A DNA stretch of 64,000 nt from a virus. Lineage: Duplodnaviria; Heunggongvirae; Uroviricota; Caudoviricetes. The translations under genes were made by a program, and so were the position numbers. The stretch lies in IMG/VR virus record IMGVR_UViG_3300033067_001661, positions 269,624-333,623 of that record, one strand, 5' to 3'. The notes under the pieces were generated by a model, which searched no databases, had not been told where the DNA came from, and saw only the letters and a program-made list of their open reading frames with translations. Of the stretch, positions 12,301 to 63,187 are shown piece after piece; within the stretch, counting starts at the first letter, position 1, and each line of letters opens with the position of its first letter.

Positions 12301-13666
12301 CTTTCAATTCTGCATTTTCCAAAGAAGCTTCGCTATAAGCCTGCCACCAATCTTGGTCTTCAGCATAGTCTCTCCATTCCATATTATTTTGAGTTCCGCC
12401 ATATACCCATTGTTGATTACCAGGCAAGCCAGCAGTATTCACTGTTGGAACGCCTATGAACTGATTAACAGCCAAATCTGTTCCGCTTATATTTGCTCCC
12501 CAAGCGTTCTTGGACTCAATAGTAAACCATCCTCTATGGAAGTTTGGAGGCATTGGGGTAGAAACCCCATTTGTTGTCATATTGAATAAAAAGCCCTTTT
12601 GAGAAGAAGACCATGTTACGGTAACGGTTCCCAACGGATAGGGATAATTTCCGTCATATGACGGGTTTGAGCTAGAACTGATTTTTGTCTGTATTGCTGA
12701 CTGCAAAATAGAAGCAACCTGTGTCATGGAAGTTGCAGCAGAAGTATTTATGTTTTGTATCTTGAGTCTTGCGTTGGCAACAGAAATAGAGAAGGCTCCA
12801 CTTGTTACAGTTCTCCAAGTAGTTAGGTCAGCCGCCTCGTTTGCACCAGAAGGCCTCCAGAACCAGTTTGAATACAAATAGCTCGCGCCCCATCCGCCCC
12901 ACATGATTATGCCATTAGCTTTTTCTTTTGCAAGAGCAACCATTTGAGACATATTGTTGTAACTTACCATTGCTCCAATATGCGTACTAGATGGATGAAA
13001 TGAAAAAGTATAGAATGGATATATTGGCTTACCATTCGCAATTTTTGACTTCATTTGATCAATGGTAACTCCAGCAAATATCTTCCAATCATTTATGAAC
13101 GATTGACTATTGCCATAAAAAGGATAACAGCTTGGAGCTACAAAATCGCAACAATTAGTAAATGGAGAAGAAACAAAAGCTCCATTTACATATCTTTGCG
13201 AAAGTCTATCCATCCAAGCGAGCCATGATTGGTAATTCGCCTGATATGTTGGATTATTTGGATTTTGAGTATATTGCAGAGGAGCATAATAATTGTTTGG
13301 ATGACCGCCAGGTATATCATACCAGCCAATTTTCAAATCGGGCCGACCCTGAGCGGCTGCTCTCGCTTTTGATCTGTTGTAAATTTCAACAAGGCAATCA
13401 AGAGCAGAATCCTTATCTGCCTCGCTCATAGAGGAATTCCAGATATAAAATCTTGGATTCTCCTCGTCCCAGGCTATTCCGTCCCAACCCTCGCTAACGG
13501 CTTGATCGACATACTGATTTATGACATCATTGTTAATTGTTAAGGTTTGATAATTAGATATCGGACTTGTACAAGCAGAAATAGCGTTCATCCCATAGAC
13601 AGACCTAAATTGTCCGGCAGAAGGCTGTCCCGTAAAACCAAAACTCGCAAAAAACTTAAATGACAT
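3398..13666 (-). CDS. Giant 3422-aa multidomain protein. At least three tandem TIM-barrel glycoside-hydrolase-like modules, a PKD domain, a pectate-lyase-like right-handed beta-helix (Asn/Gly-rich repeats), an FN3 domain (YYYKIVAYDVYGNASSP) and a further C-terminal module. Putative tail fibre or virion-associated polysaccharide depolymerase.
   Basis: Single uninterrupted 10.3 kb ORF. Repeated motif sets (KIGWYDIPG / KVGFYFNPN / KIGYYGTPF; CYPFYG / DVYPFYG / SLYPLYQG; KPIYPFYTFSFHP / KPLYVFLNPSFHFS / RPIYPFVMPTFFES; GIIMWGG / GAIVWNTY / GYIMWYGN) define tandem modules. WDFGD + AAYTYYHNNNGTPFTITL = PKD. NN.L/NNV.. beta-helix repeats. Confidence 0.65.
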   Translation of the reverse strand: MSFKFFASFGFTGQPSAGQFRSVYGMNAISACTSPISNYQTLTINNDVINQYVDQAVSEGWDGIAWDEENPRFYIWNSSMSEADKDSALDCLVEIYNRSKARAAAQGRPDLKIGWYDIPGGHPNNYYAPLQYTQNPNNPTYQANYQSWLAWMDRLSQRYVNGAFVSSPFTNCCDFVAPSCYPFYGNSQSFINDWKIFAGVTIDQMKSKIANGKPIYPFYTFSFHPSSTHIGAMVSYNNMSQMVALAKEKANGIIMWGGWGASYLYSNWFWRPSGANEAADLTTWRTVTSGAFSISVANARLKIQNINTSAATSMTQVASILQSAIQTKISSSSNPSYDGNYPYPLGTVTVTWSSSQKGFLFNMTTNGVSTPMPPNFHRGWFTIESKNAWGANISGTDLAVNQFIGVPTVNTAGLPGNQQWVYGGTQNNMEWRDYAEDQDWWQAYSEASLENAELKDFKYFMSSNYTGQPSFTGFESYGINFMQTGGISPFVESYSQAATTLLTGTLTISDSNINAGITAWLDPALGNNQALYYAYDLEFFQSYLDPASNSDTVIDNMLESFNRVYTRTKELLAARGISNVKVGFYFNPNFKSYYNPVLYWFSRGNNTGYTTSYDTWTSKFRRVNLRKSGASYYTKKFSDYTDFITCDVYPFYGEQDPFDDVYYKENLIQAAKYTAGNKPLYVFLNPSFHFSTPWCSKLVSGNYMIKMLSWCKRIADGAIVWNTYRPSFRRARVRHFMTASGGPPAVPIKTLSDWQTITNGCFNYFAQGYNRSVTGVNFSVATSVGGAESTSVANIIEAAINADLYYINNFFPTTAIYPSLTASRPYEMGSVVVAYQSSVSNNAPLSSTQVPCFEFTYTTPSVQTPPDHSSYEGREFLYCYGYSGSLPVGGTNIGSALWIGTYSNTNQEYDSNIYSGQDFDSNEWSNGWVVGNDWWHALSSMATADKYTRDRSITVMETFGSTTSNGTVRSFSGMPTVPQLKSQYNIVRSYTAYSSMTAGWSQFTDSFIDSKLDAFLAEKADIFVWDVEGDFCNVTVTGPNWPYGVTEAEVDANLEQFRSLYTRTKVRAGLKGISNIKIGYYGTPFSANSYYGAYYWGSGGLAHPIPGSVFDASMRRINQRYQNGVYVTVPFADYNDFFAPSLYPLYQGWTAAETDEILIVKGTIEKIIEVFGKVRPIYPFVMPTFFESSGYNVFMGMAQNATLSQGMYTQILDSGADGYIMWYGNLPSLYSSNHRFTPTVSKTLAQWQAITNGCFIIAVDGYPVKVEGINFSTTASMADVAQKIQDGFNNKIATIAIVTASYGSTWNSGSPTSPRNIGNVTVTWDSSNLRFVMNTLKGTLKSPSGLVFPPDFDKGYFVIRSWTAWTGSSPPGVDIGVDEWIGRHNVWTDLTNTRTDTTNEFGRWIENSRWWNSYKSIALGSYGTNVFNRVIPFINVVTPSSGEVPFTVHVDATNSYFNGVDAQDCTFEWDFGDNNPPVSVISRTMISDPRVDSDFNSDGSSHRKTSLSSKQRGINAAYTYYHNNNGTPFTITLKIWHNGVVSSTVSTTVTVSNPTIDSYPTNNPNNWVLLQVVPEQLTPPSNTFQTIDAAVSWINSNRTNGKAIIELLPGYSGSNNLNFPLNGKITISKPNILIRSSTAYSTQKPRIVAKNGSFSRSSPTALFELAATAYNVNFQDIQFGASANVTGDPGGLEQGSDNTSNLIGCVIKSPASATTNASNITFSGCLFRNLYQAVTASHFVTGVYFNQCHTSTTKIKSYDFIGCNFVINKCVHATLNGFVDGAQVFAVRTAADSPINFGGTSGLAEKLSMNFCRIDHLASLQGSSISSSGPINLYNSRYVTVYGSVLQDGSNSLNDVFAIRFDSNEMLAGGTKSLFVVTPPSSDITIVNNVLRPNTYTAGSTRINSGLFEFGGSYGLVNNLKIGNNTAIADVNTSYQKAFWNFTTATGVGLSGIEFVNNLNTEHSGYCISRWISVGTNTGQFDKFSNNVWPQRLGFMDFAFVNGVVKTWDQWVSTGYEENPSQFEVITTDLQSIYKYKLDSSTNTPLASLSILYPAASKDFNDEFRGSFSCGVGATKPYALSYSTSAFTVSPSITTRTRTAEPGWTPPSGAQNAFVAITDPVINTVDNNYASVAKPVIKKLTSNVSDILSFSSIGDTTSRALRIKFDPNGNSNIKNAYFGLLLDGGIKKFGATFVKNDNSTLSITSLTVSSYATLTDLSNAIYGAINTLFVNNNLGSPSTSIDLFGCGYLATSLLGNTSAVSIESDIYSGFGRWVYSQFSSITLGNYIKTTTTVTPTTDGYDIAITYTNDGPSGANDSVTGDVRQRIGVLRVEGVLSGLKGKFLRCTDSSNLMDYDTSFRNYFGPGLNYPFDRFAPVVVVVGETYAVGVSVLYNFATSDLISQEFIGQYGVGSIGGIGVSCISNRLAWLTDIQGDSATVNADCLARGQSMQVTLSVRVTRNVRDWVKTLAPYKAYFAATHGSVSYMKDPRPIRPVVPAISSNTQPLYYHGFEDVNNQNPATWGWAWWSNKVKYLYNTLGYERFFMWSPAGLYYNQNPYNYPSIMLTPFFDTNGTFPHSSAATVSDTCYTRLGNGTCVPGTFTVNPNLLKGTIYMLRDAIQEVPVFGFYQGYGTTVHKQWNPEAKDFVGFENMDSAYIMNKAANELHLMANYAKTNMLGLDAYAAGTKGALRQNKRAIDYIGYKYDGLRLLAEKSPEDITNINCMSFLFSFDLQSGPHVLADYILPGHETLVMFYFNTHWSDFPYSTYNEGHTKNALAAFARWGFVVGSIDNEQHASLKSPLVDASIFNAADRRFVYDQKPASVSSLAAPSGLQYKIIDAIVNQDYPDVHEQSIILSWNANIEADFSHYVVSRARIINGEPDLNLPYQEKLYTKKPIFVDYQVFPARTYYYKIVAYDVYGNASSPTAFEVTHIADDPVLNPPKNISSTANVGDGNVVVAWNAPSSEFEPSSTNRTPPKIIVQGSRRAVDLGNELFDLSNTYILVNEFVSWNNSDNRTMAQRAAEAVAEVVEARNRWASVRSNEPFRWAFWPQNFGPYDWGTPNTALFRHSSDFLSNGRYSGVWSTAGIQEARTRMQEYFGILANALNQEGIPHPYYLDPDYEGDGNGGFAGGVESERANWHNWLMADSRSSNTLFDGSISYADFTAQLKDLDGLPVPTSELYPYIYDQSLRASKLVHVYSSINAMRVDWGLYKSLFEPAKEVWPNVICGNWLLFGATRQYNANGYRFRESPVDFGPNMKSDVHVPSNYGWGLTDWIGFPTGYGYNTYYENASRFNIDLNKIKNPNEIVKAMRIASLDYSLRACEVANPNKPIAAWLSYNNTPLVYNNLYERGNPKYPNGFSASVIDDRDHMMNLFRVMNKRNVSMVGWFCGQTLGTNNTQEDTADTYSKIYEVVSNLQEAGYIV

Positions 13667-21333: not shown

Positions 21334-21888
21334 CTACGTCTCAGTCGGAACGCTCAGGTTCTTTTTGAATGCATCTATGAACTCTTGGTTCATGTCTACA
21401 ACTTCGATTTTGATTCTTCCGTTATAGGCCTCAGCAACATGCGCCATTTCTCTAGCAACATCGAACTTGCTAAGGCCTCCGATACCACATCCTAGGCCTC
21501 CAAAAGCTATCGAGCTTTCACCATTTGCGATTGCTGTTTCAAAAACTTTCGTCAAGAGAGAGGGTATCGTGCCTAAAGAAGTTTGTCCACCAGGATACTT
21601 CATTGTGACCGCATGGTAGATTCTTTTCACTCCCCTGCGCTTCAAAAGCCCTGCGTCAGAGATGTAAACGTCCCCAACATCGAACGGACCTTCTTTTTCG
21701 ACGACCTCAGCCACAATTGTTCGGATATTGACACCATTTGGTTCGGTACTTGTACCTGCCGAACGAGCGATAGCGCCTGCTACGCCCGCTCCCATGACTC
21801 CAATACCGTTTGCGGCGTTCACGATAACGTCAACGCCTTCAACCTTCGTGATATCGCCAACGTAGACCTTCATGGCTAACCCTTTCAA
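21334..21888 (-). CDS. Macro domain protein (ADP-ribose binding/hydrolase).
   Basis: GDITKVEGVDVIVNAANGIGVMGAGVAGAIARSAG matches the macro domain signature (GDIT...AIVNAAN..L..GGGV..AI). Confidence 0.8.
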   Translation of the reverse strand: MKGLAMKVYVGDITKVEGVDVIVNAANGIGVMGAGVAGAIARSAGTSTEPNGVNIRTIVAEVVEKEGPFDVGDVYISDAGLLKRRGVKRIYHAVTMKYPGGQTSLGTIPSLLTKVFETAIANGESSIAFGGLGCGIGGLSKFDVAREMAHVAEAYNGRIKIEVVDMNQEFIDAFKKNLSVPTET

Positions 21889-22703
21889 GACTGAAGTATA
21901 GCCTCCAATCCCTTCATGTAGTTGGGATTGAGTTTCACTTTTTTCTGCAACCGCTCAAGAATCTTGGAGTGCATTTGACTGATTCTGGATTCGCTGTAAC
22001 CAGTCTCTTTTGCAATCTCTTTCATGGTCATATTATCGTAGTAATGCATGTGAACAATCTTCCTCTCAAGAGGAATGAAGTTCTTGCCCATGAGTTTCTT
22101 GAACATTTCTTCACGAAGAACATTGCCATCAGGTCTCTCTTCGTCAGTTGTAATACTCTCTATCTGAATCTCTTCTCCTGAATCCGAATTTTCGGATTTA
22201 CCTGCATTCATGCTGATGCAACTAACCGGAGTAGCCTTTGAACTAATCTCCATGTATTCATCCAGTGACATGCCCATATGGTCAGCAATCTCTTCATGAG
22301 TTGGCATTCTACCAAGCTCTGATTCAAGAGTCTGCTTTACCTTCTGAATCTTAGAGTATCGCTGTCTAACCAGACGAGGAACCCAATCAACTTGACGAAT
22401 ATTGTCAAGGATTGAACCTTTTATACGATGTATTGCGAAGGTTTCAAACTTATTCTTGAGAGACGGATCAAATCTCTCAACAGCATGAAACAACCCGTCC
22501 GTACCCCAGGCAACAAGGTCGTCGATATCGACCTCTCTTATCTTCTTGTGCATTCTTTCTGCCACTTTGCTTACAAGTGGGTAGTAAATCTCAAGTAAAG
22601 AGTTTCTTGCTTTGATGTACTGCGGGTCTTGCTTATCCAACGTCTCTCGTATTACAACAAACTCTTCCCACTTGTTTCTGATTGATTCTTCACTAATCAT
22701 CAA
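21885..22703 (-). CDS. RNA polymerase sigma factor, FliA (sigma-28)/WhiG family homolog.
   Basis: Collinear similarity to E. coli FliA across regions 2-4: YYPLVSKVAERM; DDLVAWGTDGLFHAVERFD; FETFAIHRIKGSILDNIRQVDWVPRLVRQR; LESELGRMPTHEEIADHMGMSLDEY; IPLERKIVHMHYYDNMTMKEIAKETGYSESRISQMHSKILERL. GAAGGAG SD 7 nt upstream. Confidence 0.8.
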   Translation of the reverse strand: MMISEESIRNKWEEFVVIRETLDKQDPQYIKARNSLLEIYYPLVSKVAERMHKKIREVDIDDLVAWGTDGLFHAVERFDPSLKNKFETFAIHRIKGSILDNIRQVDWVPRLVRQRYSKIQKVKQTLESELGRMPTHEEIADHMGMSLDEYMEISSKATPVSCISMNAGKSENSDSGEEIQIESITTDEERPDGNVLREEMFKKLMGKNFIPLERKIVHMHYYDNMTMKEIAKETGYSESRISQMHSKILERLQKKVKLNPNYMKGLEAILQS

Positions 22704-53670: not shown

Positions 53671-53745
53671 CCGCTAAACCCCTTCTCGTCGAACGCCGCC
53701 ATGCTCGCACGAAAAAATTTCCCAGAGGTATAATGCTTAATTTTT

Positions 53746-55426: not shown

Positions 55427-55759
55427 TTAGAGAGGTCTGACGCTCTCAAGCCTTGCTTTGCTTACCCTTACCTCGCCGCCATTCGCAGAATCGCCTCCTG
55501 ATACTATATCAGCTTCTTCATACGAATAGGTGAGCAAAAGCTCTTGCCCGTCCGTCATATTACTGTAATAGTCTATAACGAACTGTTCTGTCGTTCCTAA
55601 GAAAGTATCGCCAACGACGCTGCCAATGGTAAGGTTGTATTGGAGGTTGCGGTTGGCTAGAGAATAAGCCTTGCCGTTGGCAAAGCCAACGACCTTAAAC
55701 CCTGTTCTTCTATTTTGCGCGAATTTATACCACATTGCGATTCTTGTACTCTCTGCCAA
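55427..55759 (-). CDS. Hypothetical protein (110 aa).
   Basis: ORF only. Confidence 0.3.
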   Translation of the reverse strand: MAESTRIAMWYKFAQNRRTGFKVVGFANGKAYSLANRNLQYNLTIGSVVGDTFLGTTEQFVIDYYSNMTDGQELLLTYSYEEADIVSGGDSANGGEVRVSKARLESVRPL

Positions 55760-56618
55760 GCCATCTCAAAGCTGCGGGTAACTGTTTAGGCCATACATAC
55801 CTATATAGCTCGCTCTTCATAACTTGTACACTCTTATTACCAAAACCTCTTATCAAAGCTTTCTTCGCTTCGTCAAAAGTCCATCTTCCGCCATACCTAT
55901 CAACAAAGCTCTGTACAAACTTGTTAGGGTCAAACTCCTCGTCTACCCTAAATACCCTTCTTGAAGCCAAGGTCGATTCATGATTACTGTTACCCTTGAA
56001 CTCGTAACCCTTGTTGCTTGCCAAGAACTGTTGTCTTGATACGTTAGATAGCTGACCGTTGCGGTTGTCTCTTAGCCATACCCTGATAATGCGGTTCGGA
56101 TTCAAGTGTCCAACGAATAAAGCTTGGCTCTCGCCAAATCCTAATAGCGTATTCGCAAGCTCAGGTCTTTCGCTCTGAGCGATGGGCGGAATATTACGGT
56201 CTACCGCTCGTTGCCTTGCTCGAACTCTTTCTTCTTCTCTTTTGGCTTTGCTGTTGCCAAAGTATTGAGCCATCTCACCTTGAACGGTATAAGAACCGCC
56301 TGGCCAAACAGGAGCCTCAAGCTCGCTCATGTTCGCATGAAACTCGACTATCCAAGCTCCAAACTCCGAAGCTTTCTTTGGGTCTGTTGTTACAAATAAT
56401 CCTGTAGGATTGTTGTCGGCTTCATATGAGTAAACCCTGCCAACTCTTGACTTGCCAGATAATCCGTAACGACATGCGGCTATGGCGTCCTCCAAATCCC
56501 TAAAACCATGAAAGACCCTTATTACGTCGTTGGTCTTTAGGGTTGGTCTTTCTTCAGGACTTCTACCAGGAGGTAAAGTAAGCCTGTCTGCAAACTTAGC
56601 AAGATCATACCAACTCAT
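55725..56618 (-). CDS. Hypothetical protein. Start corrected to the internal ATG (MSWYDLAKF), which abuts the upstream stop.
   Basis: ORF track 55725..56726 overlaps the upstream gene by 112 nt. The ATG at ~56618 gives a 4-nt overlap instead. Confidence 0.4.
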   Translation of the reverse strand: MSWYDLAKFADRLTLPPGRSPEERPTLKTNDVIRVFHGFRDLEDAIAACRYGLSGKSRVGRVYSYEADNNPTGLFVTTDPKKASEFGAWIVEFHANMSELEAPVWPGGSYTVQGEMAQYFGNSKAKREEERVRARQRAVDRNIPPIAQSERPELANTLLGFGESQALFVGHLNPNRIIRVWLRDNRNGQLSNVSRQQFLASNKGYEFKGNSNHESTLASRRVFRVDEEFDPNKFVQSFVDRYGGRWTFDEAKKALIRGFGNKSVQVMKSELYRYVWPKQLPAALRWLGREYKNRNVV

Positions 56619-56998
56619 GCAGGCCGTCCTTCCCTCATAATCTTCTGAACGAAGTTCATGACTTGAGAGTTTGGAGGCATGCTCTTGAGTTTGTTGTATT
56701 CTTCGTGAGAGCCTATCCAATACCATATAAACTGAGATTGAAACTTAACAGCTAATGCTCTGTAACGACCGCCAACCTGAGCAGACCAAACTTCTAGCTT
56801 TCCCCTATTTTCGGGTAATGGTTTAATGCCGACTTGTTGAGGATTGGAAAGAAGCGTTTGATATTTTTGAGAGGCTAGCTGTTGAACTTGAACTGGCAAC
56901 AAGGATAGCGAGTCTCTGAAGCTCTTGGTATGCCAATGCCCAGTATCGAATCCGGCTTCTACAAGCCTACAATAGTTTTCAGAGATTATAAGTTTCAA
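56615..56998 (-). CDS. Small protein with a RelE/HigB-like toxin-fold C-terminal signature.
   Basis: GKLEVWSAQVGGRYRALAVKFQSQFIWYWIGSHEEY resembles the HigB/RelE-family C-terminus (LKGDREGYWSITVRANWRITFQFINGDAYILNYEDYH). Confidence 0.4.
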   Translation of the reverse strand: MKLIISENYCRLVEAGFDTGHWHTKSFRDSLSLLPVQVQQLASQKYQTLLSNPQQVGIKPLPENRGKLEVWSAQVGGRYRALAVKFQSQFIWYWIGSHEEYNKLKSMPPNSQVMNFVQKIMREGRPA

Positions 56999-57002
56999 AG
57001 TA

Positions 57003-57422
57003 TTAGACCTTTGGCGGTTCTTGGTTTGTAAGCCAAGGAGTATTATTGTCTTTTGGAGGTAGTATACCCTTGTGTCCGGCTTGACCTTTCTGAGCTAATA
57101 GAGCTTGTAAGCTCTTCTTGTCATGATTGCCAACGCCTTGACGAGGAGGATAACCTGCGTCAATCCACATGTTGACGGTTGAACGGTCTGTGTCGTATGG
57201 GCTTATATCAGGATAAAGAGTTTTACCTTCAGGGGTTACAACAGTATGATAAGCTTTGGCAACCTCTGGAACGCCCCTGTGGTCCCTTTCAATGTCAATT
57301 TCTATCTTACAAGTATGACCCTTGTAACTCCATGCGTCGTCATGCATAGCTTTCTTATAAGATTTTGTTTGTATATTCTTCATTGTTCGTTTTCCTCTCT
57401 TCTCATAGATACTATCGAACAA
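57003..57422 (-). CDS. Hypothetical protein (139 aa).
   Basis: ORF only. Confidence 0.35.
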   Translation of the reverse strand: MFDSIYEKRGKRTMKNIQTKSYKKAMHDDAWSYKGHTCKIEIDIERDHRGVPEVAKAYHTVVTPEGKTLYPDISPYDTDRSTVNMWIDAGYPPRQGVGNHDKKSLQALLAQKGQAGHKGILPPKDNNTPWLTNQEPPKV

Positions 57423-57455
57423 TGAGGTATCCTTTCGTTGCGCGAAATTTTAGAG

Positions 57456-58277
57456 TTATGAGAAGTAGCAGTTTAAGAAATCAAAGATATCCTGAACGCC
57501 AATGTTTCCGTCATTATTGAAATCCCCGCTACCGCTAAAGTAGCTATTAAGAAAACTAAACAACCCTTCTAAGGTTCTTGAGGACTCGCAGCAAGAGTAG
57601 TTCTGAACGCAAATCCAAGTTCTCCTATTCCTTGTTACAGACTCTATCGAGCATGGACTGAACGCCTCAAGAACAACTCCGTTTGAGGTTGTATCCATAA
57701 GATAGCCAATGTAAGCAGGAGAACAAGAATCGTCATGACCCGCTCCTAAGGTATGAGCTAACTCATGAGCCGTTACCCTCCCTAAAATGAGAGAGTCGTT
57801 TGTGGCTATACCGTTCACAACGCATACTCCAGGTCCGCAGGCTCCTCCTAAGAAAGAGAAACCTCCTAAAGACGTATTCGTTACTCTGCCGGAAATTAAC
57901 ACAACACTTCCAGGTCTATACTGATTGTATAAAGCCGTATTGCTCCACTTTGCTATCATCTCTGTTAGAAAGCCTGTTGTCGTTGGAGGCATACCGTAAC
58001 CGTCATTATTGGTTGTATTAATCACCACTCCCGCATTTACTATATCAAGAGCAAAGTCCCTCAAATAGATTGGTCTCATGTAAGCTAAAGACTGTTGCAC
58101 AAAGGACATACAAGCAACGCTTCCCCTGCTTTGGTAGTATTGATAGTCAAACTCAAATACAACCCTGTACGGTATGACTTGATTACAAGTATATGTAGGA
58201 GGCGGAGGTATGCCGCCAAATGCATAGCTTATTGTAGCCAAGACTGCGATTATCGTGTTTCTTATACAAAAGTACAT
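57456..58277 (-). CDS. Secreted zinc metalloprotease (metzincin/reprolysin-like HExxHxxGxxHD) with a C-terminal dockerin/EF-hand-like Ca-binding repeat.
   Basis: Signal-like N-terminus from the internal ATG (MYFCIRNTIIAVLATISYAFG). VTAHELAHTLGAGHDD. C-terminal GDFNNDGNIGVQDIFDFLNCYF (DxNxDGxIxxxD loop + helix). Confidence 0.65.
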   Translation of the reverse strand: MYFCIRNTIIAVLATISYAFGGIPPPPTYTCNQVIPYRVVFEFDYQYYQSRGSVACMSFVQQSLAYMRPIYLRDFALDIVNAGVVINTTNNDGYGMPPTTTGFLTEMIAKWSNTALYNQYRPGSVVLISGRVTNTSLGGFSFLGGACGPGVCVVNGIATNDSLILGRVTAHELAHTLGAGHDDSCSPAYIGYLMDTTSNGVVLEAFSPCSIESVTRNRRTWICVQNYSCCESSRTLEGLFSFLNSYFSGSGDFNNDGNIGVQDIFDFLNCYFS

Positions 58278-58281
58278 ACCA

Positions 58282-59247
58282 TCAACTCCCAAACCAACAA
58301 CTGAGGAACTCAAAGATATCGCCTACGTCAACCTGAAGGTCATTGTCATAGTCTGCTGCTAAAGATTGACAAAAGTAACAGTTTAAGTATCTAAACAAGT
58401 CTTCAACGTCGCAAGTTCCAGAACCGTCAAAGTCTCCTTTATAAACTGGAGAGCTATCGTCGTATATTTCTAATATAAGATCTCCCAAATGGTCATAACC
58501 TATTTGCGTTGGAACTGTTGGCGTTGCTGTTCTTACAAGATTTACTATTGAGGTTTTAATCTTTGTGTTTGCTCCGTAGAGCGAAGATAGGTCAAATATG
58601 TCAGAGCCTTCTGTATGATGAATGTCTGTCCTAAAGAACCATCCATGATTGTAGATATTAAAACGAGGGGTTACTGTTGGACCTCTGTACCATTCGTCAT
58701 AACCAAATACGCCCCATGTCAAGGGTCTTGTTAGTTGCGACCCAGATACAATGGAGTTTCCATAATCTCCTAACATTTGATTAAAGAAGAATAATGGAGA
58801 AGGAACGGACCCCGCAGGAGAGCTTGGATATATACTTGGAAGCCTATAGTAGCTATACAAGTCCACCCACATAGAGTTGCTGTCGCAATACCAGTCTGTA
58901 AGCATAATCCATGTATGCGGTCCTGCTGCGCTGTTTGCGCTATCAACCCTTAGAAAAAGGTCGAGTATTCTGTCTCTTTGTCCGGGTTGAATAGGCCAAG
59001 CTCCAGCGCCATAGTCTGGAATAGACAGTTCTCTTCCGTTTGCGAACATTTGAATGTCGGTTCTGTAGCCGACGTTGTAGCATTGCCCCGTACTTATCTC
59101 CAACGGCAAAGCGTCTATTCTAAGCCTTGCGTTTCTGCATACAAGCTTGAAGTTACCAGAAGCGTGCTGAGGTAACGGCGGAACGTCTGCCGAAGCTACC
59201 GATACGCAAAATCCTAATATCAAACATGCTAAAGACTTTATACCCAT
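58282..59247 (-). CDS. Secreted protein (321 aa) with two C-terminal dockerin/EF-hand-like Ca-binding repeats.
   Basis: Signal peptide MGIKSLACLILGFCVSVASA. C-terminal GDFDGSGTCDVEDLFRYLNCYF and DYDNDLQVDVGDIFEFLSCWF. Confidence 0.5.
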   Translation of the reverse strand: MGIKSLACLILGFCVSVASADVPPLPQHASGNFKLVCRNARLRIDALPLEISTGQCYNVGYRTDIQMFANGRELSIPDYGAGAWPIQPGQRDRILDLFLRVDSANSAAGPHTWIMLTDWYCDSNSMWVDLYSYYRLPSIYPSSPAGSVPSPLFFFNQMLGDYGNSIVSGSQLTRPLTWGVFGYDEWYRGPTVTPRFNIYNHGWFFRTDIHHTEGSDIFDLSSLYGANTKIKTSIVNLVRTATPTVPTQIGYDHLGDLILEIYDDSSPVYKGDFDGSGTCDVEDLFRYLNCYFCQSLAADYDNDLQVDVGDIFEFLSCWFGS

Positions 59248-59376
59248 AAGAGTTCTCCCTTTGTTATACTACTAGGGTTCTCTATGGGCGTAATCAGTCC
59301 TTTTCTCTATTCAATTTGAGCTTAAAGTTGGGGAAGCGTTTTGGCTGCTTGGAGAATTTAGCAGCTAGAATGGGGT

Positions 59377-59411
59377 AAGGTATCCCTCTGTGCGCGAATT
59401 TTAATTGACGG
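59377..59411. repeat. Intergenic repeat copy A (AAGGTATCCCTCTGTGCGCGAATTTTAATTGACGG).
   Basis: One of three near-identical ~35-nt copies spaced ~950 bp apart. Overlaps the stop codon of paralog 1. Confidence 0.7.
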
Positions 59412-60303
59412 CATCATCTTGAAGCGGTTGCCCAATAATTCTTTTTTCTTGAAGTCTCTTTAGTTTATTAAGTATTGAGTTATAGAAGCCAACCCTCTCT
59501 CCTTCAGGTCTCATTGTGAGAGCATATCTCCAAACATATTGTTTTCTTTCTTCTTCATCCATTGAATCTAAAAAGTTCCAGAAACCTCCTCTTGCAGCCC
59601 ATGAAGCCTTCATCTTTTGCGATAAGTTCTCAAGGTATTCTGGATCATCAAGATACTTTCTTCTCTTCGTCATTACATTTTCTGCGTACTCTGGATTCTG
59701 CCATTGTTCTCTTCTTAGGTTCGCGTTCGTTTCTGCAACATTCTTTGCAAATTCTGGATCTTCCCACATTTTCTTCATTTTGTCAGAATGAAGCTTTTGA
59801 TATGCTGGGTCTTTCCATGTTTCTTTTCTTTTATTTGACTGCATTTTAGCATACTCTGGATCTTGCCAAAGAGCTTTTGATTGTTCCCGAGTTCTATTGG
59901 CGGCTTGTTCCCTAAATACAGGGTCTTGCATTTTGGTTCTCATAGATTCTCCTTTATCTCTTATTGCAATTCCTTTGCTTTCAAGAACCTTTCTTATCAA
60001 TAAAAACGAAAAACCTAAAGCTTTTTCTATGTCATGTATGCTTTTGCCAGCATTATACATGCTAATGATCTGCTCTTGTATCTCATTTGGCACTTGCTTT
60101 CTTGTTTGACCGCCACCATGACTTGATTTGTTAACATTTTCTTCTTTTAGAACCTTTTCAATTGTGTAAAAGGAAACGCCAGTTTCCTGTCTTATCTTAG
60201 AAACATTTTTGGTTTCGTTGTACATTTGTACAATCTTATCCCTTGTTTCTTTCGGGATAACATTGGGAGGTCTTCCTTTATTTTGAGCAAGTATATACCA
60301 CAT
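59401..60303 (-). CDS. Free-standing NUMOD1-repeat (tandem HTH) DNA-binding protein, paralog 1, with C-terminal W-x-DPE(Y/F) repeats. No nuclease domain.
   Basis: YNETKNVSKIRQETGVSFYTIEKVL and YNAGKSIHDIEKALGFSFLLIRKVL match the NUMOD1 pattern (S..EAA..LG.S...I...L). Five repeats of ~14 aa (WQDPEYAKMQ..., WKDPAYQKLH..., WEDPEFAKNV..., WQNPEYAENV...). Start corrected to the ATG at 60303 (MWYILAQN). Confidence 0.55.
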   Translation of the reverse strand: MWYILAQNKGRPPNVIPKETRDKIVQMYNETKNVSKIRQETGVSFYTIEKVLKEENVNKSSHGGGQTRKQVPNEIQEQIISMYNAGKSIHDIEKALGFSFLLIRKVLESKGIAIRDKGESMRTKMQDPVFREQAANRTREQSKALWQDPEYAKMQSNKRKETWKDPAYQKLHSDKMKKMWEDPEFAKNVAETNANLRREQWQNPEYAENVMTKRRKYLDDPEYLENLSQKMKASWAARGGFWNFLDSMDEEERKQYVWRYALTMRPEGERVGFYNSILNKLKRLQEKRIIGQPLQDDAVN

Positions 60304-60328
60304 GTTAGTAATTATTCGTCTAAAAGGC

Positions 60329-60371
60329 AAGGTATCCCTCTTGCGCGAATTTTAAGTGACGGCGTACCCTT
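60329..60371. repeat. Intergenic repeat copy B (AAGGTATCCCTCTTGCGCGAATTTTAAGTGACGGCGTACCCTT). Lies between the paralog 2 stop and the paralog 1 ATG.
   Basis: Near-identical to copies A and C. Ends (AAGGTA ... TACCCTT) form an imperfect inverted repeat. Confidence 0.7.
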
Positions 60372-61234
60372 TACTTAATGTTTCTTTTAACGTTAGGAAT
60401 AGTATTTTTGAGTTTATTCATTATGTTATAGTAAGATCTTTTTGCTGGTGTTGGCCAGTTTTCAAAGCTAGCATTTTTTGGTAAATGATACTGCCGTATA
60501 ATTATTCCTGCAACAATACCATCCTGAACGCTTTTGTCTTTTGAGGCAAGCCAGGCCCACCACTCGTCTCCTTTTCTTGGAGATACATCAATATCGTTTC
60601 TTACTAAGAATTTATGTATTAAGTTTGGAGAAACTTGTAATAAAGCAGCAATTTCTCTTATGCTCTTTCCTTCTTGGAATAGGTTGGTTATTTTTTGTTG
60701 TTCTTCTAAATTCCAATCTCTAGGAGTGTCTATTCTTCTTTGTATTTTAGCAGCTTCTAAAACTCTTTGTATTGCTTGTATGCTTTTCAAGTTAAAAGCA
60801 GTCGCTATCTCACTAAGGCTATACCCATCATTATACATTTGACAAATTTCTTCTTTTTGTTCGTTCGTAAAAACTATTGTTCTAGCGGTTTGGTAGTTAG
60901 TTCTTAGAGGAATGTTGTTTTGTATTAAAACCTTTGCAATACTCTGAGGGCTAACATTATACAATCTACTTAAGGAATCCATGCTAGCGCCATTTTTATA
61001 CGAAATAATGATGTCTTTTATTTGTTCAGCCGTCCAGTCAATCGGTTTCTTGGGACTTCTCATTTGAACATTATTTTTATTCAAGATTGTCATAATCGTA
61101 CTTTTACTAACGTTATAGTTATCTGCTATTTGTATAGCCGAATATCCAAGATGATAAAACTCAACAATGTCAGCAATATCTTGCGGAGATAAGTTTGTTC
61201 TTGGGCGAGTATTTTGTGCAATAATGTACCACAT
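60371..61234 (-). CDS. Free-standing NUMOD1-repeat DNA-binding protein, paralog 2 (four tandem HTH units).
   Basis: YHLGYSAIQIADNYNVSKSTIMTIL / YKNGASMDSLSRLYNVSPQSIAKVL / YNDGYSLSEIATAFNLKSIQAIQRVL / FQEGKSIREIAALLQVSPNLIHKFL. N-terminus MWYIIAQN. Confidence 0.55.
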   Translation of the reverse strand: MWYIIAQNTRPRTNLSPQDIADIVEFYHLGYSAIQIADNYNVSKSTIMTILNKNNVQMRSPKKPIDWTAEQIKDIIISYKNGASMDSLSRLYNVSPQSIAKVLIQNNIPLRTNYQTARTIVFTNEQKEEICQMYNDGYSLSEIATAFNLKSIQAIQRVLEAAKIQRRIDTPRDWNLEEQQKITNLFQEGKSIREIAALLQVSPNLIHKFLVRNDIDVSPRKGDEWWAWLASKDKSVQDGIVAGIIIRQYHLPKNASFENWPTPAKRSYYNIMNKLKNTIPNVKRNIK

Positions 61235-61287
61235 TATGTAATAGATTTCGTCAATATAAACAGAATTCCTTTCGGCGTGAATTGGAT

Positions 61288-61331
61288 AAGGTATCCTTTT
61301 ATTCCTGAATTTTAAGTGACGGTATACCCTT
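61288..61331. repeat. Intergenic repeat copy C (AAGGTATCCTTTTATTCCTGAATTTTAAGTGACGGTATACCCTT). Lies between the HNH stop and the paralog 2 ATG.
   Basis: Shares AAGGTATCC...GAATTTTAAGTGACGG...TACCCTT with copies A and B. Degenerate possible fourth copy at ~62272-62310 (GGGGTATCCTTTCCAACAAAATTAAAT). Confidence 0.65.
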
Positions 61332-61347
61332 TGGGTTTATTATCCTA

Positions 61348-62175
61348 TTAGGAAGAAAATCTTTCTTTCCAGTGATGAAGTGTATGACAATTCATGCAAA
61401 GAACGTCGCATTTATCTATTTCTTTTTGTATTGCTTCTGTGCTTTTCCCTCTTGTAGCCATTTTGCTTATTAAGCTTTCTTTTGTAGAGGGATCTCTATG
61501 ATGAAAACAAAGAACTGCTGGATGACTTTCTCCGCATGTCTTGCAGGGATGAGCTAGCTTGTAATTCCAAACATATTCCATTGCTTTATATTTTCTTCGA
61601 GTTAGGTTTTTTTGAATATCTAGTTTTTTGTTTTTGCATACTTGTTCTGTTGTAGGAACTGTGCTTTTTAACTTATTTTGCCTCTTTTTGAAATAATAGT
61701 GCTGAGCATCAGTATACTTGTATTGCGTCTTCAAAAATGTTTGTTTCTCAAGTTCTTTGATTTCTGATAAGAGTTTTTCTTTTTCTTTTAGACGACTCTC
61801 ATGTTGTTCTAGAAAAATAGATTCTTGTTTATCTCTAAGATTTTCTAGTTCTTTTCTTACTATTTCTTGCTCTAGTTTACGTTTTGCTTCGTTTTGTAGA
61901 TTGATTTTCTGATTTTCTAATTCTATTAGCTCACTTTGTTCTTTTTGAGCCTTTTCAAGATTCTTTAATAGAAGATCATATCGTTGCTGATTTTCTTCGC
62001 TCATCCCTTCGAGAGATATCTTTTTGATTTCTCTTCTAATAGAACCAAGATGTTGTCCTAAGCGATATCTTTCTTTATTCTGAGACCGCCATTTTTTCTT
62101 GTATTCTTTTTGTCTTTGTTTATCTTTGTATGGCATATATTTCATTATCGTGTGTTTTACTGTTCTACGTTTCAA
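61348..62175 (-). CDS. HNH endonuclease with an N-terminal K/E-rich coiled coil.
   Basis: C-terminal CKTCGESHPAVLCFHHRDPSTKE...CDVLCMNCHTLHH (Cys4 + HH...H HNH core). Confidence 0.65.
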   Translation of the reverse strand: MKRRTVKHTIMKYMPYKDKQRQKEYKKKWRSQNKERYRLGQHLGSIRREIKKISLEGMSEENQQRYDLLLKNLEKAQKEQSELIELENQKINLQNEAKRKLEQEIVRKELENLRDKQESIFLEQHESRLKEKEKLLSEIKELEKQTFLKTQYKYTDAQHYYFKKRQNKLKSTVPTTEQVCKNKKLDIQKNLTRRKYKAMEYVWNYKLAHPCKTCGESHPAVLCFHHRDPSTKESLISKMATRGKSTEAIQKEIDKCDVLCMNCHTLHHWKERFSS

Positions 62176-62332
62176 TCTTCACGCTAATAGGAAAAGACCG
62201 TAGCTGAGTATACTCTAGGATACCTATGTGAAATATAGATATCTTACTTTTTGAGAGACGGCGGGCTGGGGGGTGGGGTATCCTTTCCAACAAAATTAAA
62301 TCGTTATGAGTGAGGAGTCTTCCACTGCGCCG

Positions 62333-62370
62333 TTCTTAAATAGCAAACCCCAACCAACATGGCTGGGGTT
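62333..62370 (-). terminator. Rho-independent terminator closing the high-GC small-gene array (minus strand).
   Basis: AACCCCA-GCCATGTTGGT-TGGGGTT stem followed by TTGCTATTT on the minus strand. Confidence 0.55.
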
Positions 62371-62489: not shown

Positions 62490-62783
62490 TTAGTTACGGT
62501 CGATGGTCGTCTTCATGGGGCCTTGCCCTTCGAGGCTGAGGTAGCGGAGGGCCGCTGTGTCCTCTCCAGCCTCTCGGACGATTCGAGCGGCCTTGCGGCA
62601 AGCCTCTCTGCTGCCCTTGGCGACGAGGGCCTTGCCGTTGTTGTGGACCTTGAGGGCGACGGCCTTGGCGTCGTCGTAGGAGAGTTCGGGGTTGATGCGC
62701 TGAACGAGGGAGATGACGAATTCGAGGCTGTGGGTCTTGCTGTTCTTGAGGAAGGTTCGGAATGGCTTGCGAGCGGTTTTCAT
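62490..62783 (-). CDS. ClpS-like (ATP-dependent Clp protease adaptor fold) small protein; N-degron pocket residues not conserved.
   Basis: From the internal ATG (MKTARKPF...; AAGGA SD 6 nt upstream): SLEFVISLVQRIN...DDAKAVALKVHNNGKALVAKGSREACRKAARIV aligns with E. coli ClpS PMEFVIDVLQKFF...[33 protein letters not shown]. The ClpS NDD triad is replaced by NSK. ORF track 62490..62966 uses an upstream GTG. Confidence 0.5.
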   Translation of the reverse strand: MKTARKPFRTFLKNSKTHSLEFVISLVQRINPELSYDDAKAVALKVHNNGKALVAKGSREACRKAARIVREAGEDTAALRYLSLEGQGPMKTTIDRN

Positions 62784-62816
62784 GGGCTGTCCTTTCTTCC
62801 TTACAAGCGACGGCAG

Positions 62817-62828
62817 GAAGTTTAGTTC
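62817..62828 (-). promoter_or_regulatory. Conserved intercistronic element GAACTAAACTTC (one of six copies in 62410-63734), ~45 nt upstream of the ClpS-like ATG. TAAACT is a plausible -10 hexamer.
   Basis: Copies (plus-strand AGTTTAGTT) at 62410-62419, 62485-62496, 62817-62828, 63225-63236, 63471-63482, 63723-63734. In four of them AAC-TAA is the upstream gene's last Asn codon + stop. Confidence 0.55.
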
Positions 62829-62947
62829 CCCCGTTTCTTCTTCCGCTGCCTCTCCTTGCGGTTGTGCTTCTTCTCTTGCTGTTCGGCCCAGTTCTGGATG
62901 GCTTGAGCGTCTCGGTCTGCGTCGGTCTGATACTTCATGCGGTCCTT

Positions 62948-63187
62948 TCAGACGGCGATGATACACTCGCCAGTAATCTTATGGCGAGAGTGTCCGCCGA
63001 AGATGGTTTGGTTATTGACCATTTGAGCGTGTTCGCCGAACGTCTTGAGGCCATGCTCGATGAGGGCTGCGCCGACTTGAGCGGCGATTTGTTCGGCGTT
63101 GAGGGTTTGGGCGTTGACTTCGACGATTTCCAACAAGGTTCCGCTGGGGCGTTCGAGGTTCTGAATGTGGCGGATTTCAACTTTCAT
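62948..63187 (-). CDS. Small hypothetical protein (79 aa) in the high-GC array.
   Basis: ATG with AAAGGA SD. GAACTAAACTTC element ~45 nt upstream. Confidence 0.4.
   Translation of the reverse strand: MKVEIRHIQNLERPSGTLLEIVEVNAQTLNAEQIAAQVGAALIEHGLKTFGEHAQMVNNQTIFGGHSRHKITGECIIAV

What the first reader, a model, noticed from the sequence alone, without database searches (positions are those of the whole stretch)
59377..62310. Array of three homing-endonuclease-like cassettes (two nuclease-less NUMOD1-repeat proteins + one HNH), each bounded by a conserved ~35-nt element
Two paralogous proteins consist only of tandem NUMOD1-type HTH units (one with additional W-x-DPE(Y/F) repeats) and lack any nuclease domain. 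The third gene is an HNH endonuclease. Between consecutive genes sits the same element AAGGTATCC(C/T)YYTnTGCGCGAATTTTAAKTGACGG(C)GTACCCTT (copies at 59377, 60329 and 61288; a degenerate one near 62272). Each copy overlaps or abuts the upstream stop codon and lies 25-50 nt before the next ATG. Its ends form an imperfect inverted repeat (AAGGTA...TACCCTT). A partial reverse-orientation match (TATACCTCTGGGAAATTTTTTCGTGCGAG) lies upstream of the UvrD-like gene (53705-53740). This looks like serial insertion or duplication of mobile HEG cassettes carrying their own promoter/terminator or target-site sequence, with two copies having lost or never had the nuclease (possible DNA-binding regulators or decoys).
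Basis: seen in the sequence. Interest (0 to 1): 0.6.

Follow-up and report, generated by a model that had tools for sequence, protein, structure and literature searches.

The report
Repeat-bounded gene cassettes in a huge phage
A variable stretch of an uncultivated huge-phage genome holds genes (a mobile HNH nuclease gene, two DNA-binding proteins without a nuclease, and others) separated by the same 45-base sequence, and related phages carry different genes between those same repeats, so the repeat marks the joints at which genes are swapped.

Summary
The repeat is real. Three full copies lie on the minus strand at 59373-59421, 60324-60373 and 61285-61334. The claimed copies near 62272 and 53705 are not supported. 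The consensus in gene orientation is AGGGTAYRC-CGTCAMTTAAAATTYGC-N8-GGATACCTT. Each copy abuts or overlaps the upstream stop codon and lies 25-129 nt before the next start.

Two genes encode tandem-HTH proteins with no nuclease fold. The third encodes an HNH endonuclease.

The element is not specific to homing-endonuclease-like genes. In about six related phage lineages it sits at the same locus and flanks ORFans, a metalloprotease and a methylase gene.

- The HNH gene is a clean presence/absence insertion.
- It is 100% identical in genomes that are otherwise about 10% diverged.
- In near-identical relatives, identity to the window ends within 3 nt of the 3' end of one element, and both HTH genes are missing.

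The element is absent from the rest of the window and from 257-494 kb related contigs, so it is not a generic promoter.

Best reading: a hyperplastic cassette locus whose joints work like T4 PeSLs, seeded by a free-standing HNH gene. The element lacks the promoter and stem-loop that define PeSLs. Its biochemical role is inferred, not shown.

The parts
61285..61334 (-). Element copy c3, the first element of the array. It starts 13 nt after the HNH stop and ends 53 nt before the HTH2 ATG.
   Evidence: nhmmer E 1.7e-14. The 100% identity with L190, L191 and L189 stops within 3 nt of its 3' end.
60324..60373 (-). Element copy c2. It abuts the HTH2 stop codon and ends 25 nt before the HTH1 ATG. It is followed by the conserved leader TAGACGAATAATTA.
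   Evidence: nhmmer E 2.2e-16; junction sequences.
59373..59421 (-). Element copy c1. Its TAA is the HTH1 stop codon, and its left arm is replaced by coding sequence. It ends 129 nt before the ATG of the 321-aa gene.
   Evidence: nhmmer E 3.1e-15.
57420..57451 (-). Partial element (right two-thirds: CTAAAATTTCGCGCAACGAAAGGATACCTC). It lies between the metalloprotease stop and the 126-aa gene.
   Evidence: nhmmer E 0.003. Its downstream sequence is homologous to that of copy L173_d.
61348..62145 (-). Free-standing HNH endonuclease gene (265 aa as called). It has an N-terminal coiled-coil expansion relative to the 144-aa orthologue.
   Evidence: PHROG 2255 and 3106 'HNH endonuclease', E 1e-21 and 9e-20. 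Invariant C199, C202, H214, D216, C248, N250, C251 and H252. Exact protein found on 7 contigs.
61361..62214 (-). HNH-specific insertion (854 bp). HNH-less relatives L173 and L172 have 36-40 nt here instead.
   Evidence: alignment A4.
60371..61234 (-). HTH2, 287 aa. It has four tandem three-helix HTH units plus a helical C-terminal region, and no nuclease domain.
   Evidence: Pfam HTH_38 8e-23 and HTH_7 3e-16. All-helical model. Only two homologues in 5.8 billion proteins.
59401..60303 (-). HTH1, 300 aa. It has two HTH units, five W-x-DPE(Y/F) repeats and a short C-terminal region, and no nuclease domain.
   Evidence: Pfam HTH_58 1.5e-10. 31% identity to HTH2 over residues 1-123. The repeat module has more than 1000 homologues.
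59345..61284 (-). Segment present in the window but absent from the near-identical relatives L189 and L190. It contains HTH2, c2, HTH1 and c1.
   Evidence: blastn and mismatch maps.
62200..62331 (-). Conserved non-coding block upstream of the HNH site. It is kept in both HNH-plus and HNH-less relatives and forms the left flank of the HNH insertion.
57456..59247 (-). Non-HEG cassette between c1 and the partial element. It holds a 321-aa secreted protein with a GC-type dockerin-like C-terminus and a reprolysin-like metalloprotease.
   Evidence: Pfam Reprolysin_5 9e-12; NF041540 E 3e-6.

Best explanation
The region is the hyperplastic (accessory-gene) locus of an uncultivated huge-phage clade. 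Related contigs are 257-506 kb long. Genes at this locus are arranged as same-strand cassettes separated by a conserved ~45-nt intergenic element.

Shown:
- The element sits at cassette joints in at least six related lineages.
- Cassette content differs between close relatives.
- In the closest relatives, sequence identity breaks within 3 nt of the 3' end of an element.
- The HNH gene at the upstream edge is a discrete insertion, and it has recently spread between diverged genomes.

Inferred:
- The element is a shared cis-regulatory sequence for the downstream gene, probably a locus-specific promoter or operator.
- Its conservation gives co-infecting relatives a patch of homology at which recombination swaps, deletes or adds cassettes. 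T4-type PeSLs work this way.
- Breaks made by the HNH nuclease next to the first element probably drive gene conversion that carries neighbouring cassettes along.
- The two HTH proteins are passenger cassettes. They are DNA-binding relics or relatives of homing endonucleases, with no means of moving themselves.
For: 1. The repeat is real and confined to this locus.
- Three full copies and one partial copy occur in 64 kb, all within 57.4-61.3 kb.
- The sub-motifs GGATACCT, TTAAAATTC and CGTCAMTTAA occur on the gene strand only at these copies.
- Three different pattern scans of IMG/VR find copies only at the syntenic locus of the 494-, 371- and 257-kb contigs.
- None of the hits in 185,579 bacterial and archaeal genomes has the family features. 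GenBank phages give no match.

2. The element is present at joints in relatives, with different cargo.
- L048: HNH, element, 141-aa ORFan, element, pseudopilin.
- L173: element, 114 aa, element, HTH2, element, 104 aa, partial element, 133 aa, element, 124 aa.
- L172: element, element, HTH2, partial element, 225 aa.
- L177: HNH, element, element, 91 aa.
- L193: element upstream of a D12 methylase gene.
- Sources. The cargo genes have no Pfam family.

3. Breakpoints fall at the element.
- L190 is 100.000% identical to the window over 1000 nt ending at window 61285. L189 has no mismatch in the last 1194 nt up to the same point.
- Beyond that point both lack HTH2 and HTH1.
- Two Logan contigs end at this element.

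4. The HNH gene is mobile.
- It is an 854-970 bp insertion between conserved flanks in the window, L177 and L048. L173 and L172 have 36-40 nt at the same site.
- The HNH block is 100% identical in L190, L189 and the window, while the rest of L190 is 80-98% identical to them.

5. A copy in L173 lies directly after an intrinsic terminator hairpin. The element is therefore not the terminator, and it sits where a 5' regulatory site would.

6. Precedents are PeSL-mediated shuffling (PMC2839356, PMC4122927) and MobE-driven trans-homing of a defunct neighbour (PMC2790892).
Against: - The element matches no sigma-70 consensus. The best geometry is TTAAAA-N16-TACCTT, only 7 of 12 positions, and the promoter scan reports nothing at c1 or c2; at c3 it lists one opposite-strand site of which only the first hexamer (GTGACG) lies in the element.
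- It forms no stable hairpin. Fold z-scores are mostly between 0.1 and -1.4.
- A regulatory role therefore rests on position only.
- The 321-aa gene in L189 has no element upstream, so the element is not needed by every gene.
- Only the left breakpoint of the window-versus-L189 replacement lies at an element. The right breakpoint lies inside ordinary homologous sequence.
- Two adjacent 'empty' elements (L177, L189, L172) are not what simple recombination between flanking direct repeats would leave.
- Whole genomes could not be scanned with the profile. Exact-pattern scans catch about 12 of 13 known copies, so diverged copies elsewhere cannot be excluded.
- All relatives share the same syntenic locus, so co-occurrence with HNH and HTH genes may reflect common descent only.
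Confidence: 0.6

Rival explanations
1. The element is the operator bound by the tandem-HTH proteins. HTH1 and HTH2 would be repressors or autoregulators (or decoys) that recognise the 45-bp site, each HTH unit contacting one stretch of it. The array would be a regulon rather than a recombination device.
For: - Every HTH gene seen is preceded by an element plus the conserved leader TAGACGAATAATTA. This holds for window HTH1, for HTH2 in L172 and L173, and for a leader remnant in L189.
- Four HTH units could span about 40-45 bp.
- The model resembles bipartite HTH domains that bind long sites, such as Pax and Tc3/mariner, but only weakly.
- The element has conserved inverted ends, AGGGTAY and RTACCTT. 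One lineage (L193) changes the right arm so that the repeat becomes perfect.
- From my own knowledge, not tested here: I-TevI represses its own promoter through its DNA-binding domain.
Against: - Elements persist in genomes without HTH1 or HTH2 at the locus (L048, L177, L189, L190).
- No HTH2 relative was found anywhere in IMG/VR, including the 257-494 kb contigs. That search has limited sensitivity.
- Covariation of the inverted ends is not significant: one double change, reached by 175 of 500 shuffles.
Confidence: 0.2
2. The element is the recognition or cleavage site of the HNH endonuclease. Repeated copies would be repeated targets, and breaks at them would drive cassette exchange.
For: - The HNH gene lies directly upstream of the first element in the window, L189, L190, L177 and L048.
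- The identity block carrying the HNH gene ends at that element.
Against: - HNH-carrying genomes keep 2-4 intact copies, which would invite self-cleavage.
- The HNH insertion joint is about 30 nt upstream of the element, not within it.
- The sequences that differ between HNH-plus and HNH-less alleles lie at the left joint: AGTATACTCA versus CCGCTAGCTC. That is a better candidate for the target.
- In L193 the element lies about 900 nt from the HNH gene.
Confidence: 0.1
3. The array is a dedicated site-specific cassette system analogous to an integron. The element would act as an attC-like site recombined by a specific enzyme, with the HTH proteins as site-recognition subunits and the HNH protein as the nuclease.
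For: - The layout is ORF plus a 3' site with imperfect inverted ends, all in one orientation.
- Adjacent empty sites exist.
- Every array seen has an HNH gene or an HTH2 gene beside it.
Against: - No integrase or recombinase domain is present in the neighbouring genes scanned.
- The copies are highly conserved in sequence, unlike attC sites.
- The ends pair over only 6-7 bp around a ~30-nt loop, and folding is unremarkable.
- Several relatives were found through HNH or HTH2 homology, so the co-occurrence is biased by how they were found.
Confidence: 0.07
4. The repeats are passive leftovers of an old tandem duplication of one gene-plus-flank unit. They would have no present function.
For: HTH1 and HTH2 are paralogues. 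They share the N-terminus MWYI(L/I)AQN and the same leader sequence.
Against: - The element copies are far better conserved than the genes they flank. The proteins share only 31% identity, and the cargo genes are unrelated.
- Copies are kept across lineages whose flanks are only 67-87% identical.
- The element also flanks genes unrelated to HTH1 and HTH2.
Confidence: 0.05

Closest known systems
PeSLs (promoter-early stem-loops) of T4-type phages (Arbiol et al. 2010, PMC2839356; Comeau et al. 2014, PMC4122927)
   Same: - Both are short conserved intergenic motifs concentrated in hyperplastic regions.
- Both begin at the stop codon of the upstream gene and lie just upstream of ORFans.
- In both, insertions, deletions and replacements between close relatives have their joints at the motif.
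   Different: - PeSLs are defined by a sigma-70 consensus promoter plus a stable stem-loop terminator. This element has neither.
- A T4-type genome carries about 50 PeSLs spread over several regions. This element has 2-5 copies at a single locus.
- PeSLs are a motif class, whereas these copies share a near-identical 30-nt core.
- The phages here are unrelated and have 250-500 kb genomes.
Free-standing HNH homing endonuclease genes such as T4 mobE, with trans-homing of a defunct neighbour (Wilson & Edgell 2009, PMC2790892)
   Same: - The HNH gene sits between conserved flanks and is present or absent among relatives.
- An identical copy occurs in diverged genomes.
- Adjacent genes without their own nuclease could be carried along by gene conversion.
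   Different: - Cleavage and homing were not tested here.
- The neighbours are full-length HTH proteins rather than an intron-borne defunct endonuclease.
- The insertion lies in an accessory locus, not inside or beside a conserved essential gene.
Integron gene cassettes with attC sites
   Same: Both are one-orientation arrays of single genes, each followed by a recombination-prone site with imperfect inverted ends. Cargo varies between relatives.
   Different: - No integrase was found nearby.
- The sites are conserved in sequence rather than in folded structure.
- No attI-like site or common promoter is evident.
Nuclease-associated modular DNA-binding domains of phage homing endonucleases (NUMOD-type HTH modules)
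   Same: - HTH1 and HTH2 match the DNA-binding parts of PHROG families annotated as HNH or other endonucleases. They also match a GIY-YIG endonuclease of Burkholderia phage BcepSaruman.
- The W-x-DPEY module of HTH1 is fused to nuclease-type and Mom domains in other proteins.
   Different: - No nuclease domain is present in either protein.
- Pfam NUMOD1 itself is not among the listed hits.

Membership tests
PeSL (T4-type mobile regulatory cassette) | Intergenic motif concentrated in a hyperplastic region, starting at the upstream stop codon and preceding variable or ORFan genes | tested here: met
   The definition is taken from PMC2839356.
PeSL (T4-type mobile regulatory cassette) | Contains a sigma-70 consensus early promoter | tested here: not met
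   No gene-strand promoter-like site lies within any element; the only listed site touching one is on the opposite strand at c3. The best geometry, TTAAAA-N16-TACCTT, matches only 7 of 12 positions.
PeSL (T4-type mobile regulatory cassette) | Contains a stable stem-loop acting as a terminator | tested here: not met
   Fold z-scores are between 0.1 and -1.4 for most copies, and there is no U-tract. In L173 a separate terminator precedes the element.
PeSL (T4-type mobile regulatory cassette) | Insertion, deletion and replacement joints between close relatives coincide with the motif | tested here: met
   The 100% identity with L190 and L189 ends within 3 nt of the 3' end of c3. Contigs break there. 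The right-hand joint is not at an element.
PeSL (T4-type mobile regulatory cassette) | Recombination between motifs yields circular mini-circles | not testable with these tools
   This needs read-level or PCR data.
HNH endonuclease | Profile match to HNH families | tested here: met
   PHROG 2255 (1.4e-21), 3106 (8.8e-20), 35854 and 4234. No Pfam or NCBIfam HNH model passes.
HNH endonuclease | Conserved beta-beta-alpha-metal motif residues (CxxC, HH-x-D, N, CxxCH) | tested here: met
   C199, C202, H214, D216, C248, N250, C251 and H252 are invariant in 9 homologues.
Free-standing homing endonuclease gene | Presence or absence at one site between conserved flanks in related genomes | tested here: met
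   Alignment A4.
Free-standing homing endonuclease gene | Evidence of recent horizontal spread (identical gene in diverged backgrounds) | tested here: met
   The HNH block of L190 is 100% identical to L189 and the window. The remainder is 80-98% identical.
Free-standing homing endonuclease gene | Site-specific cleavage of the endonuclease-less allele | not testable with these tools
   This needs an enzyme assay.
Integron cassette array | Adjacent tyrosine-recombinase integrase (IntI) | tested here: not met
   No recombinase domain was found in the genes scanned around the array or in about 35 window ORFs. Not every ORF was scanned.
Integron cassette array | attC-type folded site with conserved structure but variable sequence | tested here: not met
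   The copies are conserved in sequence. The 7-bp terminal pairing is 88% kept but shows only one compensatory change.
NUMOD1 HTH module | Match to Pfam NUMOD1 | tested here: inconclusive
   NUMOD1 is not among the families listed for HTH1, nor among the 25 best of 40 families for HTH2. Generic HTH families score best.
Sigma-28 (FliA) promoter | TAAA-N15-GCCGATAA geometry | tested here: not met
   The element has TAAAATTC and GATAC, but the spacing is 3 nt too short (read from the sequence). The window contains no canonical site.

The most novel reading that the evidence does not exclude
The 45-nt element, the tandem-HTH proteins and the HNH nuclease together form an integrase-free cassette-exchange system of huge phages. 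The HTH proteins would recognise the element. The HNH enzyme, alone or recruited by them, would nick at or next to it. Repair between co-infecting genomes would then capture or swap single-gene cassettes at defined joints. Functionally this would be an integron analogue built from homing-endonuclease parts.
Probability: 0.07. Interest if true: 0.8.

Novelty: new variant of a known kind. Interest (0 to 1): 0.4.

Why it matters
Huge phages carry hundreds of accessory genes of unknown origin, and how they gain and lose them is poorly understood. This locus gives a concrete, sequence-defined joint at which single genes are exchanged between related 250-500 kb phages. A homing endonuclease gene that has evidently moved recently sits next to it.

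If the element proves to be both a regulatory site and a recombination joint, PeSL-type modular shuffling would extend beyond T4-like phages. It would also offer a handle for finding hypervariable loci in metagenomic phage genomes, which may be rich in anti-defence or host-interaction genes. As it stands, this is a well-supported example of a known evolutionary pattern rather than a new mechanism.

Tried and rejected
- **Generic promoter.** Rejected. No further copies or sub-motifs occur in the window. The big related contigs show none outside this locus.
- **Structured RNA or terminator.** Rejected. Rfam gives nothing. Folding is unremarkable. Covariation is not significant.
- **Copies at 62272 and 53705.** Not supported.
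- **Host-genome repeat.** The six pattern hits in bacterial genomes lack the family features.
- **Metagenome pattern scan.** Most of its 120 hits were chance. One recurrent group is the C-terminus of a class II aminoacyl-tRNA synthetase gene.
- **IMG/VR group L174-L181.** The match lies inside tail-fibre-like coding sequence and was judged to be chance.
- **HTH2 C-terminus as a decayed PD-(D/E)xK nuclease.** This was suggested by alignment to a 721-aa multi-HTH protein in L189. It is not supported: the PHROG hits are insignificant and the model is all-helical.
- **Sigma-28 promoter for the phage's own FliA-like sigma factor.** The spacing does not fit, and no canonical sites exist in the window.
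- **Other searches that led nowhere.** GenBank phages show no DNA similarity. PDB sequence searches were uninformative. The Foldseek search of the HTH2 model gave no significant match.

Full report
**Observation**

All large ORFs of 57-62.2 kb lie on the minus strand. Reading that strand gives the following order:
- a ClpS-like gene (62490-62966, Pfam ClpS 3e-11);
- an intrinsic terminator (62346-62370);
- a 130-nt conserved non-coding block;
- an HNH gene (61348-62145);
- HTH2 (60371-61234);
- HTH1 (59401-60303);
- a 321-aa secreted protein;
- a reprolysin-like metalloprotease;
- a 126-aa gene.

Between HNH, HTH2, HTH1 and the 321-aa gene lies the same element. The 16-mer GAATTTTAAKTGACGG occurs three times against 0.12 expected, and no shuffle out of 100 reaches three. 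A profile built from 11 copies scores the three window copies at E 2e-16 to 2e-14.

The profile finds one further, partial copy at 57420-57451 (E 0.003), between the metalloprotease and the 126-aa gene.

In gene orientation the element reads AGGGTAYRC-CGTCAMTTAAAATTYGC-N8-GGATACCTT. Its TAA is the stop codon of HTH1. In a relative, the same TAA is the stop codon of the HNH gene.

Independent assemblies from other samples reproduce the whole array at 99.9-100% identity, so it is not an assembly artefact.

**The three genes**

HTH2 has four HTH units (Pfam HTH_38 8e-23, HTH_7 3e-16). HTH1 has two HTH units and five W-x-DPE(Y/F) repeats. Both match the DNA-binding portions of PHROG families annotated as endonucleases. 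HTH2 also matches a GIY-YIG endonuclease of Burkholderia phage BcepSaruman at 22% identity.

An AlphaFold model of HTH2 (mean pLDDT 73) is entirely helical, which excludes HNH, GIY-YIG and PD-(D/E)xK folds.

HTH1 and HTH2 share only 31% identity over their first 123 residues, so they are not a recent duplication.

The W-x-DPEY module of HTH1 has more than 1000 homologues. In other proteins it is fused to Mom, REase_MTES_1575 and endonuclease-I-like domains.

The third protein matches PHROG HNH families at E 1e-21. It keeps the invariant residues C199, C202, H214, D216, C248, N250, C251 and H252 across nine homologues.

**Genome context**

The window encodes the following:
- ribonucleotide reductase;
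- thymidylate synthase;
- SNF2 and UvrD helicases;
- a 3422-aa protein;
- a FliA/WhiG-type sigma factor.

It has no DNA match among 50,697 GenBank phages. Relatives are IMG/VR contigs of 494, 371 and 257 kb and an ENA contig of 505,915 bp. This is an uncultivated huge-phage clade.

**The element in relatives**

Pattern scans and protein-guided retrieval gave about 15 distinct copies in at least six lineages, all at the syntenic locus.

| Lineage | Order of genes and elements (el) |
|---|---|
| L048 (about 500 kb phage) | HNH (144 aa), el, 141-aa ORFan, el, pseudopilin |
| L177 (257 kb; HNH 86% identical) | HNH, el, el, 91 aa, metalloprotease, D12 methylase |
| L172 | el, el, HTH2 homologue (59%), partial el, 225 aa, methylase |
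| L173 | el, 114 aa, el, HTH2 homologue (68%), el, 104 aa, partial el, 133 aa, el, 124 aa |
| L193 (HNH 46% identical) | one el upstream of a methylase gene |

The cargo genes other than HNH and HTH2 have no Pfam family. The element is therefore a joint between cassettes of any kind, not a feature of endonuclease-like genes.

It is also not a generic signal:
- Its sub-motifs occur on the gene strand of the window only at the element copies.
- Three different exact-pattern scans, which together recognise 12 of 13 known copies, find nothing elsewhere in the 257-494 kb contigs.
- The hits in 185,579 prokaryotic genomes all lack the family features.

**Evidence for cassette turnover at the element**

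Two contigs, L189 and L190, encode an HNH protein identical to the window's.
- L190 is 100.000% identical to the window over 1000 nt ending at window 61285, which is 3 nt past the GGATACCTT of c3.
- L189 has no mismatch in its last 1194 nt up to the same point.

Immediately beyond that point the two contigs carry:
- 29 nt of diverged sequence;
- a second, c2-like element;
- a remnant of the HTH leader;
- a 310-aa dockerin-type gene.

HTH2, c2, HTH1 and c1 (window 59345-61284) are absent from them. Homology resumes 33 nt after c1, at 80-87% identity over the 321-aa gene and near 100% thereafter.

Two short Logan contigs terminate at this element. That is expected if several alleles branch there within a population.

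**The HNH gene as a mobile unit**

Alignment of five alleles (A4) shows the HNH gene as an 854-970 bp insertion. It lies between the conserved upstream block and the sequence TTTTCTTCCTAATAGG that precedes the first element. L173 and L172 have 36-40 nt at that position.

HNH-plus and HNH-less alleles also differ in the 10 nt next to the left joint: AGTATACTCA versus CCGCTAGCTC. That is where a target-site difference would be expected. This is an inference.

The HNH block of L190 (at least 1200 nt) is 100% identical to that of L189. Up to c3 it is also identical to the window. The rest of L190 is 80-98% identical to both. This mosaic is the pattern expected from recent gene conversion, as in homing.

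**What the element does**

Position suggests a 5' cis-regulatory site. Each copy lies after the upstream stop codon and 25-240 nt before the next start. In L173 one copy follows a separate terminator hairpin.

Other evidence does not confirm this:
- The promoter scan reports nothing at c1 or c2; at c3 the only element-overlapping site is an opposite-strand one whose first hexamer alone lies in the element.
- The best sigma-70 geometry, TTAAAA-N16-TACCTT, matches only 7 of 12 positions.
- Sigma-28 geometry is off by 3 nt, and the window has no canonical sigma-28 site.
- RNA folding is unremarkable.
- The 7-bp inverted ends are 88% kept, but only one compensatory change is seen (L193), which is not significant.

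The regulatory role is therefore inferred. The role as a recombination joint rests on comparative evidence, and the enzyme involved is unknown. Ordinary homologous recombination at a conserved patch is the simplest reading.

**Comparison with known systems**

The behaviour matches PeSLs of T4-type phages in three respects. PeSLs are conserved motifs that start at the upstream stop codon. They sit before ORFans in hyperplastic regions. They mark the joints of insertions, deletions and replacements (PMC2839356; PMC4122927).

The two components that define a PeSL, a sigma-70 promoter and a terminator stem-loop, were tested and not found. The element therefore works like a PeSL but is not a member of that family.

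The HNH gene meets the comparative criteria for a free-standing homing endonuclease gene. The adjacent nuclease-less HTH genes recall the MobE-dependent trans-homing of the defunct I-TevIII (PMC2790892).

An integron-like reading is not excluded, but there is no integrase among the neighbouring genes and the sites are conserved in sequence.

**Verdict**

The element is, however, a general cassette joint of a hypervariable locus, not a homing-endonuclease attribute.

Novelty: a new variant of a known kind. Interest: 0.4.

Noticed in passing
window 21885-22703 (-): The phage encodes a FliA/WhiG-family (sigma-28 type) sigma factor (TIGR02479, 194 bits, above its cut-off). The window contains no canonical sigma-28 promoter, so its promoter specificity is unknown.
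   Followed up: partly
window 62200-62331 (-): A conserved non-coding block lies between the ClpS-like gene's terminator and the HNH site. It is 74-87% identical in five lineages, whether or not HNH is present. It has no Rfam hit and its function is unknown.
   Followed up: partly
L189 6781-8946 (corresponds to a junction near window 55737-55747): A near-identical relative carries a 2.4-kb insertion encoding a 721-aa protein of about eight tandem HTH units. No element lies next to it. Multi-HTH genes seem to be recurrent mobile cargo in this clade.
   Followed up: partly
window 57456-59247 (-); L034 3042-3605: The cassette proteins carry signal peptides and GC-type dockerin-like C-terminal repeats (NF041540, E 3e-6, just below its cut-off). 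The relative has a prepilin-type pseudopilin in their place. This hints at a Planctomycetes/Verrucomicrobia-like host.
   Followed up: partly
window 59401-60303 (-), residues about 140-235 of HTH1: The W-x-DPE(Y/F) repeat module has more than 1000 homologues in the 1.8-billion-protein library. In other proteins it is fused to Mom, REase_MTES_1575 and endonuclease-I-like domains. Only spurious Pfam hits (GerD, STI1 DP) cover it, so it is probably an undescribed nuclease-associated DNA-binding repeat.
   Followed up: partly
window 56615-56998 (-): A 127-aa ORF with a ParE-like toxin domain (Pfam E 7e-7) lies in the same accessory region.
   Followed up: no
L191 and L192 (Logan SRR23702486 and SRR23702485), equivalent to window 61285-62243: Two short contigs that are 100% identical to the window end at or inside element c3. 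The assembly graph probably branches there because several alleles coexist.
   Followed up: no
window 3398-13666 (-): A single 3422-aa ORF whose only Pfam match is DUF3383.
   Followed up: no
window 59000-62000: The three endonuclease-like genes have 32-34% G+C, against about 40% for most of the window. The sequence flanking them beyond 62.3 kb has 50-53% G+C.
   Followed up: no
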